Source: Candidatus Harrisonbacteria bacterium (GTDB lineage: Bacteria > Patescibacteriota > Minisyncoccia > UBA6257 > 1-14-0-10-44-23). From it: a stretch of DNA of 55,779 nt. The notes below the pieces were generated by a model. The model made no database searches, was not told the origin of the DNA, and was given only the letters and a program-made list of their open reading frames with translations. The stretch spans positions 1-55,779 of the forward strand of contig JAHFLF010000004.1 of NCBI GenBank assembly GCA_023255625.1, written 5' to 3'. Numbering within the stretch: position 1 is the first letter of the stretch; every line of letters starts with the position of its first letter. A program made the translations under genes and the position numbers. Below, in pieces: positions 4,827 to 10,893 of this stretch.

Positions 4827-5705
4827 TTACTTTCTCAAACCAATTTTCCAAATTCCTTTTTCCAAAAATGCCTCGACGGTCTGCCGATTCGCTTTGTTGA
4901 TTAAGTTTGAATGCGACAGTTTATGCTTTTTTCCGTACTCAGCGAGGGTAACGATTTCAGCCCCCTCCAAATACGCCAACCGTTTATGATAACTATTCGT
5001 AAGCGATTTACCCACTATCTCCTCCATTATTGCAGTCGTGCCCTTTGATTCAAATTCCTTGAATGCCTCATAGTACATTTTTCGATCAATAAATTTGATA
5101 TTAACCGGCACAAAACCTTCTCGTAAAAGAAGATAATTATTAATCACTCTTCCAATGCGACCATTCCCGTCTCCAAATGGATGAATATATTCAAAGGTAA
5201 GATGAAGCCGGGCGATACGCTTAATGATATTTTCGTGGCTTGCCGAGTTGTATCCCGCCAACATTTTTTCCAATCGCTCAATAACCTCTTCGGGGCGGGA
5301 GCCGATATGATTGGCAACGCGAACATACTCCTTCTCGATGCGAAATCTTCCCGCAATATCATCGCGAATATTAGACATTAACATCTTATGTAAAGACAAA
5401 ATCATCTCTAAGGTAAGCTCTTGCTGTTTAGCTTTTGAATCTATATACGAAACGACGCGTGCCAAATTTTTTGCCTCAAAAATTTCCCTTTGGCCAACAA
5501 ACCGATCCAAGTCAATTTGAAGCAGAATTTTTTCGGTTTCCTCAAGACTCAAAGTGCTATCTTCAATGGCATTTGAGTTATATACTTGCTCTGCAACTTC
5601 AGTTTCAGCAATCAACTTAATAAGCGCCTCCTTACCGGTGACGGATTTATAGTATCGCTCACGAAGTGAATTCACCTTTTTGAAGACATTCAGTGTTTTC
5701 GCCAT
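4827..5705 (-). CDS. Fic-family protein (AMPylase-type) with an N-terminal inhibitory-motif-like SNAIED
   Basis: Fic motif HPFGDGNGRIGR. The ORF-track start at 5729 lies inside the promoter, so the ATG at 5705 (MAKTLNVFKK) is preferred because it sits 7 nt after a consensus -10. Confidence 0.88.
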   Translation of the reverse strand: MAKTLNVFKKVNSLRERYYKSVTGKEALIKLIAETEVAEQVYNSNAIEDSTLSLEETEKILLQIDLDRFVGQREIFEAKNLARVVSYIDSKAKQQELTLEMILSLHKMLMSNIRDDIAGRFRIEKEYVRVANHIGSRPEEVIERLEKMLAGYNSASHENIIKRIARLHLTFEYIHPFGDGNGRIGRVINNYLLLREGFVPVNIKFIDRKMYYEAFKEFESKGTTAIMEEIVGKSLTNSYHKRLAYLEGAEIVTLAEYGKKHKLSHSNLINKANRQTVEAFLEKGIWKIGLRK

Positions 5706-5712
5706 ATATTGA

Positions 5713-5752
5713 ATTATACTCCTATTCACGATTTTGTCAAGATAATCGTGAA
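5713..5752 (-). promoter_or_regulatory. Consensus promoter of the Fic gene, bracketed by an inverted repeat (candidate operator); leaderless geometry
   Basis: The minus strand reads TTGACA (5740..5735)-16 nt-TATAAT (5718..5713), then 7 nt, then ATG 5705. Inverted repeat TTCACGATT (5725-5733) / AATCGTGAA (5744-5752) flanks the -35. A third partial copy cgatttttcacg is at 5769-5780. Confidence 0.65.
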
Positions 5753-5818: not shown

Positions 5819-6070
5819 TTACGGAATGAAACCTCCTGAAGCGGCGCTGGGCGTACTGCCCCCGCTAATGAGATAGAGCTGTTCCACCTTCTCCCGCGCC
5901 CACGGCGTTTTGCGCAAAAATGTCAGGCTCGACTTGATACTCGGGTCTTTCAAAAAGCAATTAATCTTAATCCGCGCGCCAAGCTTCTCCCACCCATACT
6001 TCTCAACTAAAAACTCCAATATCACCTGCAGCGTCTTCCCATGCAACGGATCATTTGATTTCGTCTCCAT
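5819..6070 (-). CDS. VF530/DUF2132-family small DNA-binding-like protein
   Basis: 83 aa, [61 protein letters not shown] matches my memory of the DUF2132 pattern. Confidence 0.7.
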
Positions 6071-6162: not shown

Positions 6163-6495
6163 TCATTTAATAAATGACTTATAATAAATTTTGTAAGCTA
6201 CGATAACTGTGCCTAGGCCGATTGCAATGAATACAACCCATCGCGCTAAGTTATCTTGTGGCGGGAATAGGCTAACAGCAATCTGAGAAAAAGTCATAAA
6301 AAACATCGCAAATGAAAGAGATGTCGCAACCTGATTGAATCTGTCGGTGCTCTTATTGGACTTTTCAATCGTATCTTTAAGTCGCCGCATCATTTCAACC
6401 TGCGCCTGCTGGGCTGGAAGGCCGCTAGGCGTACCGATCACACCCCTACCAGCATCGTCGACTAATTCATTATCTGATTTAATATTTTCATTCAT
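6163..6495 (-). CDS. Small two-TM membrane protein downstream of the ATPase-DUF4435 gene
   Basis: 110 aa. Soluble N-terminal half, then SLSFAMFFMTFSQIAVSLF and WVVFIAIGLGTVIVAYKIYY. Same strand as the upstream gene and 48 nt after its stop. Confidence 0.5.
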   Translation of the reverse strand: MNENIKSDNELVDDAGRGVIGTPSGLPAQQAQVEMMRRLKDTIEKSNKSTDRFNQVATSLSFAMFFMTFSQIAVSLFPPQDNLARWVVFIAIGLGTVIVAYKIYYKSFIK

Positions 6496-6543
6496 ATCAA
6501 TAGTCGCTGAATCAGTATCCTCTCAATCCCTGAGGACGATTCA

Positions 6544-8007
6544 TCAAGTAATAAGAAATTTAAACTCCGAAAAATATTTTCCTAACAAATCATCTTGAGG
6601 AATTTTTTCCAAAATTTCGACCATTAAATCATATTTCTTTTTCCTATCTCCCTTTTTATCTTCAACTAATCTGACAAAAACTTCGGATCCATCAATGTAG
6701 TCAATAAGCTCAGCCACGGTGGCACTTTTCCCAAGAGCAACTTGGATGGGCTTGATTGCTGGCTTAGTCTTAACTTCAATTAAATTTATAAGTGCTTTAA
6801 TCTTCGCTTCCCAATCAGTCACTTCATACAAATTTAAAATTTCTGGATTAAGCAAATAATTTTCAATACAATACTTCTCTAATTGTATTAAATTTTTATA
6901 CTCAACCTTCTCGATATCTGTCAGGGGTTTATTGTCTCCATCTATCAAGAAATAAACATTCTGAACTGGTATATTTTTAAAAACTTTTGAAAAACTTTTC
7001 ACAAACTCTGAACCCCCATTAACAATTTGTACGCTTATATCTAGCTTTAATATTTTTGCAATCTCCTCTAATACTGTCTTATGAGATTCATCTTCAACAT
7101 AGACAAGCTTGCCCTTCGTAGTAATCCCTTGAATAATTTTTATCGTATCCCCAGCCAAATCGCTTATCATAGCCGGAGTAAAATTTTTATCAACTAAAAC
7201 CTTCTCATTGTCCCAGAACAAAAATTTAGTCCTCGGCCTAAATTTATCTAAAGCAATAACACGAGAGTGAGTAACAGTTATTATCTGCTTCTCATATTGA
7301 GTGGAGAAAAAATCAAGAAAATCAAAAAGTTTTTCCTCGAGAGACCAATTGAGATGAACTTCAGGTTCATCGATAAGGTAGATATCCGTAAAATCTCTAG
7401 AAAAATAAATTGCGAATACAAGGGAAATTATAGCATTTTCGCCTTCACTTAATTTATTTAAAGATAAACTTTTTTTATTTTTTACTATTTGTGATTGATA
7501 TTTTGAATTCTCAGCATCCCAGCTAAAAATTAGTTGATAGTTAAAAATCCTTTTAAGAACTTTATCGTATTCTTCCTGAACAGCCTTAGCAGCGTCTGCT
7601 TTTAAGTGAGTACTCTTATTAACAAGGAGCTCTGCACTTTCTACAAGGTATTCGGCAATAGACTTTATTATTTGTACATTTTGATCTTCAATTTGTTGAT
7701 TTAAAATTTGATTAATTTCTTGAGCCTGCTTACTTTTATCGTATCCAAACTGTGTCTTAAGATTTTCAACTAAAACTTTCTGAGCATTACGTTTCGGACT
7801 AAAAACAATGACATCCTTTTTCCCAGCAGGATCGCTAAAAAAAACTTTTCCGCTATCTCCTCTATGACAAGAAATCCAGTTCAGCAACTGACTCTTACCT
7901 GTCCCGTTAGTTCCAGAAATCAAATTTAATCCGACAATAAAGTCCATGTCTTGCTGGAATACGCCTTCCCATAAACTAATTTTAATTTGCTTGATATAAT
8001 TTTTCAT
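6544..8007 (-). CDS. ABC/AAA_21-type ATPase fused to a DUF4435/Toprim-like domain (OLD / PARIS AriA-AriB-like single polypeptide)
   Basis: Walker A GTNGTGKS, signature LSEGE, Walker B IYLIDEPEVHLN, H-loop TVTHS. The C-terminal part has LVYVEDESHK, GGSEFV, YFLIDGDNKP and KYCIENYLLNPE (Toprim/DUF4435-like acidic motifs and the IENYL motif). Visibly more AT-rich than its neighbours. Confidence 0.78.
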   Translation of the reverse strand: MKNYIKQIKISLWEGVFQQDMDFIVGLNLISGTNGTGKSQLLNWISCHRGDSGKVFFSDPAGKKDVIVFSPKRNAQKVLVENLKTQFGYDKSKQAQEINQILNQQIEDQNVQIIKSIAEYLVESAELLVNKSTHLKADAAKAVQEEYDKVLKRIFNYQLIFSWDAENSKYQSQIVKNKKSLSLNKLSEGENAIISLVFAIYFSRDFTDIYLIDEPEVHLNWSLEEKLFDFLDFFSTQYEKQIITVTHSRVIALDKFRPRTKFLFWDNEKVLVDKNFTPAMISDLAGDTIKIIQGITTKGKLVYVEDESHKTVLEEIAKILKLDISVQIVNGGSEFVKSFSKVFKNIPVQNVYFLIDGDNKPLTDIEKVEYKNLIQLEKYCIENYLLNPEILNLYEVTDWEAKIKALINLIEVKTKPAIKPIQVALGKSATVAELIDYIDGSEVFVRLVEDKKGDRKKKYDLMVEILEKIPQDDLLGKYFSEFKFLIT

Positions 8008-8125
8008 AAAAATACCCCACTCCCCCGGCTTGGAAGGTTACGGGTGTAAAGTCCTAAGTCATCGGGCTCGTGTGCGCCCACCAACTATTAATTTATCTCA
8101 ATTATACCAATTTTTAAGCCAAAAA

Positions 8126-8359
8126 TCAATTGAGAGCCTTAATAATAGCTTTAAAAATTTCTTCTGGGGCGTCTTTAAGTTGATGTTCCCAAATTTGTAT
8201 GACCTGCCAACCCTTATCACGAAGATTGCGAGTAGTCTTTAAGTCTCGCCGCCTATTTGCTTCTATCTTGGCGCGCCAAAAATCATTTTTAAGCAGATGT
8301 TTCCATCGTGGATATTGCCAGCCGTGCCAAAAATCGCTATCCAAAAAATATCGAGCTTC
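8126..8359 (-). pseudogene. vsr: Remnant of a Vsr very-short-patch-repair endonuclease (C-terminal half only)
   Basis: DSDFWHGWQYPRWKHLLKNDFWRAKIEANRRRDLKTTRNLRDKGWQVIQIWEHQL matches the Vsr C-terminal half (FWHG ... FW..KI..N..RD ... GW.V...WE). An in-frame TAA at 8362..8360 removes the N-terminal half, and there is no ATG start. Confidence 0.7.
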
Positions 8360-8431
8360 TTACTAATTATCTGAATTAAATCAAATTTTGAATCAAAAAT
8401 CACTGTGGATAACTTTCGGTTTAGTTTCGGC

Positions 8432-8437
8432 TATAAT
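8432..8437 (+). promoter_or_regulatory. -10 box (TATAAT) 7 nt upstream of the LexA-MTase ATG; leaderless geometry
   Basis: TATAAT at 8432-8437, ATG at 8445, no SD. Direct repeat TTTCGG-tttag-TTTCGG (8414-8430) abuts the -10. No good -35 was found. Confidence 0.4.
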
Positions 8438-8444
8438 AAAGTAT

Positions 8445-9878
8445 ATGGAAATGACTCCGCGAAAACAACAACTTCTAGATTTCGTAAATACCTATCGCTT
8501 GCGCCGTGGTTTTGCGCCATCAATTCCGGAAATTGCCAAAAAACTCAAACGCGCGCCATCTACAATTCACCAGCACTTGGAAGAGTTGCAAGCCGGCGGG
8601 CACATTAATAGAGAAAAAAATCAGCCCCGTAGTGTTGCTGTTGTGGAGCGGCAGCAAATGGTCAGCGTTCCCCTGCTGGGCACTATCGCAGCTGGTGCAC
8701 CTCTGACTTTATTCGATATTCCTAAAGAAACCATTGCTGTTCCAAAAAATAAAATACCAGCAGCATCAACAATCTATGCTCTCCGTGTATCTGGAAACAG
8801 CATGATTGACGAAAATATTAACGACGGAGATATCGTTCTAGTTAAACAGCAAGAAACCGCCGAGAACGGACAGAAGGTGGTCGCGTTAATCGACAATCAA
8901 GAGGCCACACTGAAAAAATTCTATAAAGAGAATGGCCGCATACGACTTCAACCGGCGAACAAAACCATGGAGCCATTAATCTTCAGGAACGGTCGGGATG
9001 TTTCGATACAAGGCATCGTGCTTGATGTTATCCGTGAAGAAATAAGACCGACCGTACAAATTTATGCGCATCAAGAGACTAAAAAATATAAAGAATTGCC
9101 GCTAAATAAGATTCTTTGCGGTGATGCAGTTGAAATTTTGAAAAAAATCCCATCAAACTCCATAGACTTAGTTGTCACTTCTCCACCCTACGATGATATC
9201 AGAATGTATAACGGTTTTTCCATAAACCTACCAGCGGTAGGAAGGGAACTGAATCGTATTTTAAAAAATGGCGGAATTGCCGCGATGGTAATTCAAGATG
9301 CAACTCGTAATTTCGGGAAAACATTAACATCTTTTAAGACAATCATAGATTGGTGCGACAATGCGGGCTTTAAACTCTTTGAAACTGCAATCTATAGAAA
9401 ACACGGCACGGAAGGGGCCTGGTGGACAAAACGATTCCGTGTTGATCATGAATATATGCCAATTTTTCTGAAAGGCGACCGTCCTGGCTACTTTAATAAA
9501 GAACCGCTGAAAATACCTTCTAAGCATGGGGGTAAAACAATGACTGGCAGCGGCAATCGACGAACAGATGGGACGACAACAAAAACAGTTAGGAGAGAAA
9601 TAAATAGCATGAAGTGCAGGGGCACAGTCTGGGATTATCTGAATGCTGGGGACAAAAACCCGCTCAAAAGAAAACACCCGGCAACCTTCCCGGATAAAAT
9701 TCCAACTGACTTTATACAATGCTTCTGTCCGCCGGGAGGGGTTGTGCTTGACCCATTTATCGGATGCGGATCAACCGCTGTTACAGCGAAAAAATTAGGA
9801 AGGAATTATATCGGCATTGATATATCCCAAGAATACTGTGATCTTGCTAAAGAGCGCCTTAGCACAGACGCTAGCTAA
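8445..9878 (+). CDS. LexA (wHTH + S24 autopeptidase) fused to a beta-class N4/N6 DNA methyltransferase
   Basis: N-terminal part: LexA wHTH IPEIAKKLKRAPSTIHQHLEELQAGGHI, cleavage site GTIAAGAPL, Ser in RVSGNSM, Lys in EATLKKF. C-terminal part: motif IV DLVVTSPPYDD, then motif I LDPFIGCGSTAVTAKKLGRNYIGIDI. The frame is continuous. The ORF-track start at 8388 is TTG, so ATG 8445 is preferred. Confidence 0.85.
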   Translation: MEMTPRKQQLLDFVNTYRLRRGFAPSIPEIAKKLKRAPSTIHQHLEELQAGGHINREKNQPRSVAVVERQQMVSVPLLGTIAAGAPLTLFDIPKETIAVPKNKIPAASTIYALRVSGNSMIDENINDGDIVLVKQQETAENGQKVVALIDNQEATLKKFYKENGRIRLQPANKTMEPLIFRNGRDVSIQGIVLDVIREEIRPTVQIYAHQETKKYKELPLNKILCGDAVEILKKIPSNSIDLVVTSPPYDDIRMYNGFSINLPAVGRELNRILKNGGIAAMVIQDATRNFGKTLTSFKTIIDWCDNAGFKLFETAIYRKHGTEGAWWTKRFRVDHEYMPIFLKGDRPGYFNKEPLKIPSKHGGKTMTGSGNRRTDGTTTKTVRREINSMKCRGTVWDYLNAGDKNPLKRKHPATFPDKIPTDFIQCFCPPGGVVLDPFIGCGSTAVTAKKLGRNYIGIDISQEYCDLAKERLSTDAS

Positions 9879-10893
9879 GTTCGTCGGGATGTTCGATAGT
9901 GAATTCTATATTCTGACTACCCGTCATAGCAAACGAAAGTGGATTTTTTGCTATAAAAGCATCAAAGGACCTATTACTTAGCGAAGTACCGGTAAAATCG
10001 CCCTTTGTAAACTGCGAAAGTTGCCATTTGTTCCAAGACCAGTTTGCGATATTGTAGCTCCATCCGGTTAACTTTGATAAAAGTGCTAAGAATCTTTCAG
10101 CCCGTTTCTTTGCATCCTGATTAAGCAGATAAAAATTTTCTTCTTCAAGCACAAGGTTGTGGGGTGTTCCTTCACCGCCCCGTAGAGTAATAGTCACCCT
10201 ATCTCCTCGCTCACGCGGGATACTGATAGCGTCTCGCGCTCTAAGAAAATCATTCATCGCAAGCATAAGCTCATGAACCGAATAGTGTTTATTCAAAAAT
10301 ATTTTATTTAGAGCAGTACCCTTCTCCTCTGCACGCAAATATTTTAACCAACTTAAAGAATTTTCAGTATATTGAACCATAGTCATCCAAGTCCCATCGG
10401 CAAAAAGAATTGGCGCGATAGCTCTCTTCGATATTTCTATATTCTGAATGCTGCCAATAAGTCCGACAAGAAAATGAATTGTAGCGAAAGGATATTTTAG
10501 TCGAAAATCATGATATCCGTCATGGCCACGAAGATTATTAATCGATATACAATTATCAAAATTATTCCAGTTAGGAGGTAAGCGGCGATGGTTGTACATA
10601 ACCATATGCTGCCCCACGCTTTTAATCTCCTTGCGAAAAATTTCCATATCCAAAAATACACAATCTCTTGCCTTGAATCCTTTCTGAAGAACTAAAATTT
10701 TCCCATCATAAAAACCTCTCACTTTCCAATTGAGATGATGTGACATAAACAAACCACAAAGCAAGCCATCACTATCTGGGCTTAAAATACAATCCTGATC
10801 GCGCTCAACAATCCAAGGATATTTCTTGATGACCGCAGCATAATCAATAACATCATTACGACCCTCTAACATCTCCTGAATTTTTGAAGACAT
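9871..10893 (-). CDS. Hypothetical protein, candidate cognate nuclease of the LexA-MTase module
   Basis: 340 aa. Convergent with the MTase gene, with 3' ends overlapping by 8 nt. Acidic/Lys patches SPDSDGLLCG and FLDMEIFRKEIK could form a nuclease-type site. No family recognised. Confidence 0.55.
   Translation of the reverse strand: MSSKIQEMLEGRNDVIDYAAVIKKYPWIVERDQDCILSPDSDGLLCGLFMSHHLNWKVRGFYDGKILVLQKGFKARDCVFLDMEIFRKEIKSVGQHMVMYNHRRLPPNWNNFDNCISINNLRGHDGYHDFRLKYPFATIHFLVGLIGSIQNIEISKRAIAPILFADGTWMTMVQYTENSLSWLKYLRAEEKGTALNKIFLNKHYSVHELMLAMNDFLRARDAISIPRERGDRVTITLRGGEGTPHNLVLEEENFYLLNQDAKKRAERFLALLSKLTGWSYNIANWSWNKWQLSQFTKGDFTGTSLSNRSFDAFIAKNPLSFAMTGSQNIEFTIEHPDELS

What the first reader, a model, noticed from the sequence alone, without database searches (positions are those of the whole stretch)
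6163..8007. Single-polypeptide ABC ATPase plus DUF4435/Toprim-like domain (fused PARIS/OLD-like candidate defence gene) with a small membrane partner
The 487-aa protein has a complete ABC-type ATPase:
- GTNGTGKS
- LSEGE
- IYLIDEPEVHLN
- TVTHS

Its C-terminal part carries acidic Toprim-like motifs and the IENYL motif I associate with DUF4435:
- LVYVEDESHK
- YFLIDGDNKP
- KYCIENYLLNPE

Established knowledge: OLD-family nucleases and PARIS (AriA ABC ATPase plus AriB DUF4435 nuclease) combine exactly these two modules. They act in anti-phage defence.

This protein is unusually short for a fusion. It is followed 48 nt later on the same strand by a 110-aa protein with two C-terminal TM helices. It sits in visibly AT-richer DNA next to an R-M-like module and a Fic gene. 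The membrane partner could be an effector or could be unrelated.
Basis: partly seen in the sequence, partly recalled or inferred. Interest (0 to 1): 0.7.

Follow-up and report, generated by a model that had tools for sequence, protein, structure and literature searches.

The report
Compact fused PARIS-like ATPase–Toprim defence gene
The 487-residue gene is a real, intact, horizontally acquired single-protein relative of the PARIS anti-phage system (an ABC ATPase joined to an AriB-type Toprim nuclease). It is an unusually short form whose relatives often sit inside restriction-modification operons, and the small membrane gene next to it is not its partner.

Summary
A 487-aa ORF (6544-8007, minus strand) has every quoted motif. 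A 110-aa ORF follows 48 nt downstream. The large gene has 32% GC against 48% for the window.

- The N-terminal half is an AAA_15/AAA_21 ABC ATPase. Its closest solved structure is AriA.
- The C-terminal half is a DUF4435/AriB-type Toprim domain. This protein scores just below Pfam's cut-off, but 16 of 27 relatives hit DUF4435.
- A profile-profile comparison with AriB-like proteins gives 98.9% probability. AriB is the only significant PDB fold match.
- E305, D356, D358 and E382 align with the AriB-type acidic residues.

Fused PARIS (AriAB) and a validated compact ATPase-TOPRIM protein (HEC-04) are already described, so the kind is known.

This family forms a separate clade of about 75 clusters. 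It is about 190 aa shorter than the long fused AriAB-like forms recovered here. Most of the loss is in the AriA helical insert that builds the hexamer and binds Ocr.

Relatives, including the 76% and 74% identical ones, sit between hsdS and hsdR in type I R-M operons, which is the PrrC position. Others sit beside type II or III R-M genes.

The 110-aa ORF has only two homologues, and neither lies next to a relative. It is not a conserved partner.

The parts
6544..8007 (-). 487-aa single-polypeptide ABC ATPase + DUF4435/Toprim protein (compact fused PARIS-like gene); stop codon at 6544-6546
   Evidence: ORF. PADLOC AriAB 3.2e-21. Pfam AAA_15 9e-13, AAA_21 7e-11, DUF4435 2e-5. More than 235 homologues, mostly full-length at about 480-540 aa with some shorter fragments. 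GC 0.32.
7243..8007 (-). ABC ATPase domain (residues 1-255): Walker A at 7891-7914, signature LSEGE at 7438-7452, Walker B at 7360-7383, H-loop at 7264-7278
   Evidence: Motifs translated and invariant. Best PDB sequence match is AriA (2.3e-18 with the profile). Best fold matches are AriA, Ts OLD and GajA.
7681..7773 (-). Residues 79-109: short, low-confidence remnant of the helical insert between Walker A and the signature motif. This insert is 120-190 aa longer in long AriAB-like forms and AriA-like proteins.
   Evidence: pLDDT below 50 for residues 79-96 and 98-109. Walker A to signature distance is 148 aa against 271 and 338 aa.
7111..7242 (-). Linker (residues 256-299): two strands plus one helix between the ATPase and Toprim domains
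   Evidence: Secondary structure. H247 to E305 spacing is fixed at 58-59 aa in the family.
6838..7110 (-). Toprim/DUF4435 core (residues 300-390) with E305-D306 (7090-7095), D356-G-D358-N (6931-6942) and C-I-E382-N-Y (6856-6870)
   Evidence: hhalign against AriB-like proteins: 98.9%, E 3e-17, with the acidic residues aligned. These residues are invariant across compact, long fused and split forms. Fold match is to AriB only. DUF4435 is hit by 16 of 27 family members.
6547..6837 (-). C-terminal all-helical region (residues 391-487), about 65 aa shorter than in AriB-type proteins
   Evidence: Model pLDDT above 90. The tail after E382 is 110 aa against 172-177 aa.
8101..8129 (-). Promoter-like site (TTGATT, 17-nt spacer, TATAAT, with TG) about 94 nt upstream of the start codon
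   Evidence: Consensus scan, 10 of 12 matches. This is pattern evidence only; the number of sites found equals the number expected from shuffles.
6163..6495 (-). 110-aa small membrane-type ORF 48 nt downstream. It is probably co-transcribed but is NOT a conserved partner. It is listed because the finding included it.
   Evidence: Only 2 homologues, both in other contexts. Absent from all relatives' loci. No terminator-like site between the two genes.

Best explanation
The gene encodes a stand-alone, single-protein abortive-infection-type defence enzyme of the PARIS/OLD superfamily. An ABC ATPase acts as sensor and switch. It is fused to an AriB-type (DUF4435) two-metal Toprim nuclease that acts as effector.

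Shown:
- the domain identity
- intact catalytic residues in both domains
- homology to AriA and AriB
- horizontal acquisition
- membership of a distinct compact clade
- recurrent residence of relatives in R-M operons

Inferred:
- The protein is latent as an ATP-regulated homo-oligomer.
- A phage-derived cue changes the ATPase state. By analogy with PARIS and PrrC, the cue would be an anti-restriction factor or loss of R-M function.
- This brings two Toprim domains into an active arrangement. AriB must dimerise to be active (PMC11464382).
- The nuclease then cuts nucleic acid, most likely tRNA, as shown for AriB (PMC11464382) and P2 OLD (PMC12445682). Translation stops and the phage does not propagate.

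The effector is covalently attached, and the AriA insert that forms the hexameric scaffold and Ocr-binding pores is largely missing. Activation therefore cannot work by release of the nuclease from an AriA6 scaffold. It must be conformational. The 110-aa membrane ORF plays no conserved role.
For: - Domains. Solved-structure relatives are AriA and AriB.
- The catalytic residues K38, S187, D213, H247, E305, D356 and D358 are invariant in compact, long fused and split forms. E382 is E in 28 of 32 compact sequences and in all long and split forms.
- The C-terminal domain is homologous to AriB-like DUF4435 proteins encoded next to AriA-like genes.
- All 55 family members hit PADLOC AriAB best (best E 4e-38).
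- Patchy distribution across Patescibacteria, Acidobacteriota, Proteobacteria, Bacteroidota, Chloroflexota and archaea, plus GC 0.32 against 0.48, fit a mobile defence gene.
- Neighbours of relatives are R-M genes, recombinases, HTH regulators, Fic and relaxase.
- Six loci have hsdS-X-hsdR with gaps of -17 to +13 nt.
- In the related compact ATPase-TOPRIM protein HEC-04, Walker A and E/D/D mutations abolish defence (10.1101/2024.01.29.577857).
Against: - No experiment exists for this family.
- The DUF4435 score of this protein (24.9-25.6 bits) is below Pfam's gathering cut-off of 27. A sequence profile of the C-terminal domain does not find E. coli AriB in the PDB. The link to E. coli AriB itself rests on fold match, with TM-score only 0.44, and on intermediate sequences.
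- Substrate and trigger are inferred by analogy only. GajA, another ATPase-Toprim protein, cuts DNA.
- In this window the gene is not inside a type I operon, and no type I genes occur in the 55 kb.
- The excess of R-M neighbours over long or split PARIS-like forms is not statistically significant in this sample (Fisher p = 0.06-0.14).
Confidence: 0.75

Rival explanations
1. Two-gene system: the ATPase-Toprim protein senses infection, and the downstream 110-aa membrane protein is its effector (membrane disruption).
For: Same strand, 48-nt gap, no terminator-like site between the genes. One or two hydrophobic helices.
Against: The 110-aa protein has only 2 homologues in 5.8e9 proteins. One follows a ResIII gene in an MTase-ClpP-ResIII operon. 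The other lies between a CAP-domain gene and VF530. Neither is near a relative of the ATPase-Toprim gene. No homologue occurs in about 40 relatives' loci, including the 78%, 76% and 74% identical ones. GC differs (0.41 vs 0.32). The large protein already carries its own nuclease effector.
Confidence: 0.05
2. PrrC-like R-M guardian: the protein physically docks on an R-M complex and is held latent by it. The complex would be HsdMSR in relatives, and possibly the neighbouring type II system here. Activation follows when a phage disables restriction, rather than by direct recognition of a phage protein by the ATPase alone.
For: hsdS-X-hsdR order with tight or overlapping junctions occurs in six loci spanning 33-76% identity to the window protein, from bacteria and an archaeon. 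X and HsdR identities co-vary (Spearman 0.58, p = 0.02). Further copies follow type II (MTase-MutH-like) and type III (Mod-Res) genes, or sit between hsdM and hsdS. This is the position of prrC in EcoprrI (PMC3506569, PMC12707154). The AriA scaffold and pore insert is mostly absent.
Against: About 60% of compact-family loci have no adjacent R-M gene. The window copy has its own promoter-like site and is not inside an R-M operon. Embedding can also reflect co-regulation or co-transfer without physical interaction (10.1101/2024.01.29.577857). No interaction data exist.
Confidence: 0.3
3. Class 1 OLD-family nuclease (P2 Old / Thermus OLD type) rather than a PARIS relative.
For: It has the same overall ATPase-then-Toprim order in one polypeptide. 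The full-length model matches Ts OLD 6p74 at E 9.5e-9. The PADLOC retron I-B ATPase-Toprim model aligns almost end to end (6.8e-12). One homologue is annotated 'OLD family' by JGI.
Against: There is no Pfam Toprim_OLD hit at E<=1, whereas DUF4435 is hit. The C-terminal model matches only AriB significantly in the PDB and matches no OLD or GajA Toprim. AriA and AriAB models outscore GajA and OLD-type models for all 55 members. No reverse transcriptase or UvrD-like partner lies nearby.
Confidence: 0.1
4. Housekeeping ABC-type ATPase (transporter or DNA-repair subunit) mis-read as a defence gene.
For: Some sources name homologues 'ABC-type ... transport system ATPase subunit'. Weak hits to ABC_tran, SMC_N and Rad50.
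Against: No permease or substrate-binding neighbours. The fixed C-terminal Toprim domain has an invariant E/DxD. Phyletic distribution is patchy. Composition is foreign. All NCBIfam transporter hits are far below their cut-offs.
Confidence: 0.02

Closest known systems
PARIS, fused form (AriAB; 'merged' clades of Burman et al. 2024, PMC11464382; single-gene fusion noted by Rousset et al. 2022, PMC9122126)
   Same: AAA_15/AAA_21 ABC ATPase followed by a DUF4435 Toprim domain in one polypeptide. The catalytic residues are the same. PADLOC AriAB is the best model for every family member. AriA and AriB are the closest solved structures.
   Different: It is about 190 aa shorter than the 680-700-aa fused forms recovered here. 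The Walker A to signature insert is 148 aa against 271 aa, and the tail after the Toprim core is 110 aa against 172 aa. A sharp score gap separates the compact clade (above 320 bits) from longer forms (170 bits or less) in a 1.84-billion-protein search. The match covers only 46% of the PADLOC AriAB model. I could not test whether DefenseFinder's merged-PARIS profiles already include this clade.
PARIS, two-gene form (E. coli B185 AriA + AriB; PDB 8UX9, 8V46)
   Same: Same two modules and the same acidic Toprim residues. In AriB these are E26, D30, D88, E90 and E122. Here they are E305, D356, D358 and E382.
   Different: The effector is covalently fused, so the published release-and-dimerise activation cannot apply as such. 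The AriA region of about residues 48-294 holds the IS1/IS2 helices that make the trimer of dimers and the R116/R119/R168/R172 pores that bind Ocr (PMC11464382). It corresponds to only about 68 residues here. The family is not phage- or satellite-borne in IMG/VR.
HEC-04 (Hma-embedded ABC ATPase fused to TOPRIM; Payne et al. 2024, bioRxiv 10.1101/2024.01.29.577857)
   Same: Compact single protein (model length 494) with an ABC ATPase followed by TOPRIM. It was found embedded in a multi-gene methylase/helicase defence system. Walker A (K62) and E319/D375/D377 are required for defence, and these have direct counterparts here (K38, E305, D356, D358).
   Different: Similarity is only distant (PADLOC HEC-04 3.6e-9, 33.8 bits). 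AriAB scores much better, and HEC-04 is not among the 25 PADLOC families that the most members match. The HEC-04 Toprim was compared with OLD, whereas this one matches AriB/DUF4435.
PrrC anticodon nuclease of the EcoprrI type IC R-M locus
   Same: An ABC-type NTPase fused to a C-terminal nuclease. The gene lies between hsdS and hsdR in the same orientation, as in six relatives' loci. PrrC and PARIS are both classed as 'RM guardians' that cut tRNA-Lys (PMC12707154).
   Different: The nuclease domain is Toprim/DUF4435, not the HEPN-like PrrC ACNase domain (PMC3506569). There is no sequence-family membership. The window copy is not embedded in a type I locus.
OLD-family nucleases (class 1 P2/Ts OLD; class 2 GajA of Gabija; retron I-B ATPase-Toprim)
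   Same: ATPase-coupled Toprim architecture. Fold-level matches to 6p74, 8u7i and 8sm3. P2 OLD is also a tRNA nuclease (PMC12445682).
   Different: No Toprim_OLD Pfam hit. The C-terminal domain does not match OLD or GajA Toprim structures significantly. No GajB/UvrD or reverse transcriptase partner is present.

Membership tests
PARIS (AriA/AriB, including merged AriAB) | ABC ATPase of the AAA_15/AAA_21 type with intact Walker A, signature, Walker B and H-loop motifs | tested here: met
   Pfam AAA_15 49 bits (cut-off 32.1) and AAA_21 43.1 bits (cut-off 27). AriA is the best PDB sequence match, 2.3e-18 with the profile. Motifs are invariant.
PARIS (AriA/AriB, including merged AriAB) | DUF4435 (PF14491) Toprim nuclease domain with conserved acidic metal ligands | tested here: met
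   This protein scores 24.9-25.6 bits, just below the cut-off of 27. However, 16 of 27 family C-termini hit DUF4435 (best 1.6e-8). hhalign against DUF4435-positive AriB-like proteins gives 98.9% and E 3e-17 with E/DxD/E aligned. AriB is the only significant fold match.
PARIS (AriA/AriB, including merged AriAB) | AriA helical insertions (IS1/IS2) that build the hexameric propeller and the trigger-binding pores | tested here: not met
   The Walker A to signature distance is 148 aa against 271 aa (long fused) and 338 aa (split). AriA 48-294 corresponds to about 68 residues here. Residues 79-109 are modelled as disordered.
PARIS (AriA/AriB, including merged AriAB) | Activation by anti-restriction proteins (Ocr) and cleavage of tRNA-Lys | not testable with these tools
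   Needs genetics and biochemistry. Known only for the E. coli system (PMC11464382, PMC12409363).
PARIS (AriA/AriB, including merged AriAB) | Detection by the DefenseFinder PARIS_I_merge / PARIS_II_merge profiles | not testable with these tools
   The profiles are not available here. The PADLOC AriAB model hits at 3.2e-21 but covers only 46% of the model.
OLD family (class 1) | Toprim_OLD-type (PF20469) nuclease domain C-terminal to the ATPase | tested here: not met
   No Toprim_OLD hit at E<=1. The C-terminal model gives no significant match to OLD Toprim structures. The full-length match to 6p74 probably comes mostly from the ATPase half, because the C-terminal model alone does not match OLD structures.
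Gabija (GajA/GajB) | GajA ATPase-Toprim protein with an adjacent UvrD-like helicase GajB | tested here: not met
   GajA models score weakly (3e-9). No helicase gene is adjacent.
Retron type I-B effector (ATPase-Toprim) | Adjacent reverse transcriptase and msr/msd non-coding RNA | tested here: not met
   The PADLOC ATPase-Toprim_I-B model aligns nearly full length (6.8e-12). However, no RT domain occurs among neighbours within 10 kb.
HEC-04 | Membership of the HEC-04 sequence family (PADLOC PDLC04149) | tested here: inconclusive
   The hit is 3.6e-9 and 33.8 bits over residues 2-366. This shows distant homology and the same architecture, but AriAB scores much higher for all members.
PrrC/RloC anticodon nucleases | C-terminal PrrC-type (HEPN-like) ACNase domain | tested here: not met
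   The C-terminal domain is Toprim/DUF4435. No PrrC/RloC-type family appears among the Pfam, NCBIfam or top PADLOC hits.
PrrC/RloC anticodon nucleases | Gene embedded between hsdS and hsdR of a type I R-M operon | tested here: inconclusive
   Met for six relatives, including the 76% and 74% identical ones. Not met for the window copy, and no type I genes occur in the window.

The most novel reading that the evidence does not exclude
The compact clade may be a hybrid of the two classical 'R-M guardians'. It would combine a PARIS-type ATPase-Toprim nuclease, stripped of the AriA scaffold and Ocr-pore insert, with the PrrC niche and PrrC logic. Under this reading it docks on the restriction complex encoded around it and fires when restriction is disabled. 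This would be convergent recruitment of an unrelated nuclease fold to the same operon position. It would also give a naturally minimal, single-chain model for how an ABC ATPase gates a Toprim nuclease without subunit release.
Probability: 0.25. Interest if true: 0.6.

Novelty: new variant of a known kind. Interest (0 to 1): 0.4.

Why it matters
Fused PARIS genes are known but have not been studied mechanistically. The published mechanism is release of AriB from an AriA hexamer followed by dimerisation, and it cannot apply to a covalent fusion. It fits even less well for one that lacks most of the scaffold and trigger-binding insert.

A 487-aa single chain is an attractive minimal system for asking how ATP binding or hydrolysis switches on a Toprim nuclease. 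Its repeated placement between hsdS and hsdR offers a direct way to test whether PARIS-like proteins can guard a specific restriction enzyme as PrrC does.

It also adds a defence gene to the small genomes of Patescibacteria. For annotation, it shows that the adjacent small membrane ORF should not be called part of the system.

Tried and rejected
1. Membrane partner. I searched the 110-aa protein against 5.8e9 proteins and inspected the contexts of both homologues. I also searched all fetched loci for it. Rejected as a partner.

2. Direct sequence link to E. coli AriB. A profile of the C-terminal domain and an AriB-like ORF both failed to hit AriB in the PDB by sequence. The link had to be made by fold search and profile-profile comparison with intermediate AriB-like proteins.

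3. Regex-based motif spacing failed. I replaced it with an alignment-based measurement.

4. Is the R-M association specific to the compact clade? A Pfam census of neighbours gave Methylase_S 8, ResIII 6, HsdR families 5 and N6_Mtase 4 among 126 neighbours of compact loci. The 70 neighbours of long or split loci gave 1 each of Methylase_S, N6_Mtase and Mrr_cat. Fisher tests are not significant (p = 0.14 for type I, 0.06 for any R-M). I therefore claim only an association well above a crude genomic background assumed here (R-M genes as 1-5% of all genes), not clade specificity.

5. Is the 340-aa neighbour an ordinary restriction enzyme? It has no family hits. With 962 well-conserved homologues it first looked housekeeping. 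Context in L078-L082 then showed a conserved pairing with the LexA-MTase and a C-protein-like gene, so an R-M role is plausible but unproven.

6. Phage-borne origin. An IMG/VR scan found no close relative.

7. tRNA-flanked island. There are no tRNA genes in the window.

8. HEC-04 identity. I scanned all 55 family members against PADLOC. No model matches at family strength, so the clade is not simply HEC-04.
Full report
OBSERVATION

The window contains two ORFs on the minus strand: a 487-aa ORF at 6544..8007 and a 110-aa ORF at 6163..6495, separated by 48 nt.

The gene is compositionally foreign. Its GC is 0.32 (GC3 0.28) against 0.48 for the window. The downstream genes differ from it: the 110-aa ORF has GC 0.41, VF530 0.50 and Fic 0.40.

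A promoter-like site with an extended -10 element lies about 94 nt upstream of the start codon (8129..8101). This is pattern evidence only. No terminator-like site separates the two ORFs.

DOMAINS

The N-terminal 255 residues are an ABC-type ATPase.
- Pfam AAA_15 and AAA_21 both score above their gathering cut-offs.
- By sequence, the closest solved structure is AriA of PARIS: 5e-6 with the single sequence and 2.3e-18 with a family profile.
- An AlphaFold model built on 55 homologues (mean pLDDT 86) matches AriA best, followed by Thermus OLD and GajA.

The C-terminal half scores 24.9-25.6 bits against Pfam DUF4435, just under the cut-off of 27. The family-level evidence is nevertheless solid.
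- 16 of 27 relatives' C-terminal domains hit DUF4435, the best at 1.6e-8.
- A profile of the family recovers AriB-like ORFs lying directly downstream of AriA-like ORFs in other genomes, at E about 1e-11.
- Five of six of those ORFs are bona fide DUF4435 proteins, with scores up to 4e-22.
- A profile-profile comparison with them gives 98.9% probability and E 3e-17. It aligns E305, D356, D358 and E382 with their E31, D85, D87 and E110.
- A separate model of residues 276-487 (pLDDT 91) has only two matches at probability 1.00 in the whole PDB, both AriB: 8ux9_A at 5.5e-4 and 8v46_D at 1.9e-3. It has no OLD or GajA Toprim match.

Burman et al. list E26, D30, D88, E90 and E122 as the AriB metal ligands, and E26A abolishes defence (PMC11464382). 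The pattern here is the same type. PADLOC's best model for the protein is 'AriAB' (3.2e-21). AriAB is also the strongest-scoring of the families that all 55 aligned homologues hit (best E 4e-38).

THE FAMILY

The protein belongs to a coherent family of mostly full-length proteins of about 480-540 aa.
- An exhaustive profile search of 1.84 billion cluster representatives finds 139 clusters at E<=1e-30.
- About 75 of these are full-length, and all of those score above 320 bits.
- A sharp drop follows, to proteins of 578-686 aa at 170 bits or less.

A scan of species-representative genomes returned the compact form from Patescibacteria, Acidobacteriota, Gamma- and Betaproteobacteria, Bacteroidota, Chloroflexota, Myxococcota and archaea. 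This patchy distribution is typical of mobile defence genes.

The same scan recovered 680-700-aa fused forms, whose length matches the 694-position PADLOC AriAB model. It also recovered classical pairs of a roughly 455-aa AriA-like gene and a roughly 285-aa AriB-like gene.

In a joint alignment, K38, S187, D213, H247, E305, D356 and D358 are invariant in all three architectures. The differences are these:

| Measure | Compact | Long fused | Split pair |
|---|---|---|---|
| Walker A to signature (aa) | 148 | 271 | 338 |
| Tail after Toprim glutamate (aa) | 110 | 172 | 177 |

In AriA the missing region holds the IS1/IS2 helices that assemble the trimer of dimers, and the R116/R119/R168/R172 pores implicated in Ocr binding (PMC11464382). 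In the model of the window protein, what remains of it (residues 79-109) is predicted with pLDDT below 50.

CONTEXT OF RELATIVES

The closest named relatives, at 76% and 74% identity, lie between hsdS and hsdR of type I R-M operons. The same hsdS-X-hsdR order recurs at 41%, 39%, 37% and 33% identity. These loci include a gammaproteobacterium, a patescibacterium and an archaeon. Junctions range from -17 to +13 nt. HsdR and X identities co-vary modestly (Spearman 0.58, p = 0.02).

Other copies sit in the following positions:
- between hsdM and hsdS (L013, L020)
- after a type II MTase and MutH-like endonuclease pair, with 1-nt gaps (58% identity)
- after a type III Mod-Res pair (46% identity)
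- divergent from an m5C methylase (59% identity)

In all, 14 of 39 non-redundant compact loci have an R-M gene directly adjacent. Type I subunits are the commonest neighbour families in a Pfam census. The remaining neighbours are recombinases, HTH regulators, Fic, a relaxase or unrelated genes.

Among 19 long or split loci, only one is in a type I operon. The difference is not significant in this sample (p = 0.06-0.14). I therefore claim association with R-M, not clade specificity. Embedding of ABC ATPase defences in R-M, BREX and Hma systems is a described phenomenon (bioRxiv 10.1101/2024.01.29.577857).

CONTEXT IN THE WINDOW

In the window the gene is not inside a type I operon, and no type I genes occur in the 55 kb. 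Upstream of it lie a truncated Vsr remnant (8126-8344) and, divergently, a LexA-fused N6_N4 methyltransferase (8388-9878). That methyltransferase is convergent with a 340-aa ORF.

The gene pair recurs at 54% identity in other Patescibacteria. There it has a C-protein-like HTH gene and flanking serine recombinases.

THE 110-AA ORF

Only two homologues exist among 5.8 billion proteins. One is the last gene of an MTase-ClpP-ResIII operon. The other lies between a CAP-domain gene and VF530. No relative of the ATPase-Toprim gene is nearby in either case. VF530 also follows the 110-aa ORF in the window.

None of the relatives' loci contains a homologue of the 110-aa ORF. The 78%, 76% and 74% identical relatives are followed by a Trp-repressor-like gene or by hsdR. 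The partner hypothesis is rejected.

MECHANISM

Shown: an intact ABC ATPase is fused to an intact AriB-type two-metal Toprim nuclease. It was horizontally acquired and belongs to a defence-associated family.

Inferred from PARIS (PMC11464382, PMC12409363), P2 OLD (PMC12445682), HEC-04 (10.1101/2024.01.29.577857) and PrrC (PMC3506569, PMC12707154):
- The ATPase keeps the nuclease latent.
- A phage cue alters the ATPase cycle. The cue is probably an anti-restriction factor or the resulting loss of restriction.
- Two Toprim domains are brought into an active arrangement.
- tRNA is cleaved (DNA is less likely), which arrests translation.

Because the nuclease is covalently attached and the scaffold insert is missing, the release-from-hexamer step of canonical PARIS cannot operate.

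A PrrC-like model is the most interesting reading that the data do not exclude. In it the protein is tethered to, and silenced by, the R-M complex encoded around it. I give it about 0.25-0.3.

COMPARISON AND NOVELTY

The kind is known. Fused ariAB genes are recorded (PMC9122126; two 'merged' clades in PMC11464382). A compact ATPase-TOPRIM fusion, HEC-04, has been validated with Walker A and E/D/D mutants.

The present clade is not HEC-04: the hit is only 3.6e-9, and HEC-04 is not among the 25 PADLOC families that the most members match. No PADLOC v2 model matches the clade at family strength. Its nearest model, AriAB, is matched over only 46% of its length.

I could not test whether DefenseFinder's merged-PARIS profiles already cover it. 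I therefore rate it a new variant of a known kind: a compact, insert-less, frequently R-M-embedded fused PARIS. Interest is moderate (0.4).

Noticed in passing
window 8388-9878 (+) and 9871-10893 (-); also L078-L082: A complete LexA (DNA-binding domain plus S24 autopeptidase; TIGR00498 2e-51) is fused to an N6_N4 DNA methyltransferase. It is convergent with, and overlaps by 8 nt, a 340-aa ORF with no family hit but 962 homologues across Patescibacteria. The same pair recurs at 54% identity with a 73-aa HTH_3 (C-protein-like) gene 3 nt upstream and serine recombinases on both sides. It looks like a widespread mobile type II R-M system whose methylase carries a possibly SOS-cleavable LexA module.
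   Followed up: partly
window 8126-8344 (-): A 72-aa ORF matches only the C-terminal half of the Vsr very-short-patch repair endonuclease (TIGR00632 3.5e-10, model positions 64-118 of 119). It is a truncated remnant lying between the ATPase-Toprim gene and the methyltransferase. This suggests an earlier m5C-methylase/Vsr module at this site. A 59% identical relative (L012) sits next to an m5C methylase.
   Followed up: partly
window 6163-6495 (-) and 5819-6070 (-); L074, L076: The 110-aa small membrane-type protein has a conserved N-terminal soluble motif (DDAGxxVIGTPSGLxAQxAQxEMMRRLK). It has only two homologues in 5.8 billion proteins. One is again directly followed by a VF530 DNA-binding protein gene, as in the window. 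The other ends an N6_N4 MTase-ClpP-ResIII operon.
   Followed up: partly
window 4827-5729 (-): The Fic-domain protein (Pfam Fic 3e-22) hits the PADLOC candidate defence family PDC-S04 (1.2e-36) and SoFic (3.7e-27). It has GC 0.40, below the window mean. It may be a second defence-type gene in the same low-GC stretch.
   Followed up: no
L044 6713-7615, L049 6827-7681; P0332-P0355: Stand-alone proteins of 260-300 aa in Anaerolineae and other lineages consist of a short N-terminal CxxC (zinc-ribbon-like) region plus the same Toprim/DUF4435-like domain (E 1e-37 to 1e-46 against the family profile). They have no adjacent ATPase and lie in neighbourhoods that do not look defence-related.
   Followed up: no
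L045 6542-8260: A 572-aa fused ATPase-Toprim protein of intermediate length, from an alphaproteobacterial MAG, is also embedded in a type I R-M operon (hsdM, small ORF, X, hsdS, ORF, hsdR). R-M embedding is therefore not confined to the 487-aa clade.
   Followed up: partly
L069 3527-4369, L013 5899-6795, L071 3-791, L009 3876-4655: The type I R-M operons that carry relatives of the gene often hold further embedded genes between hsdM and hsdS (KilA-N, AntA, DUF3800). A Bro-N gene sits directly upstream of the relative on the short L071 contig, where no R-M genes are seen. These operons act as multi-gene landing pads.
   Followed up: no
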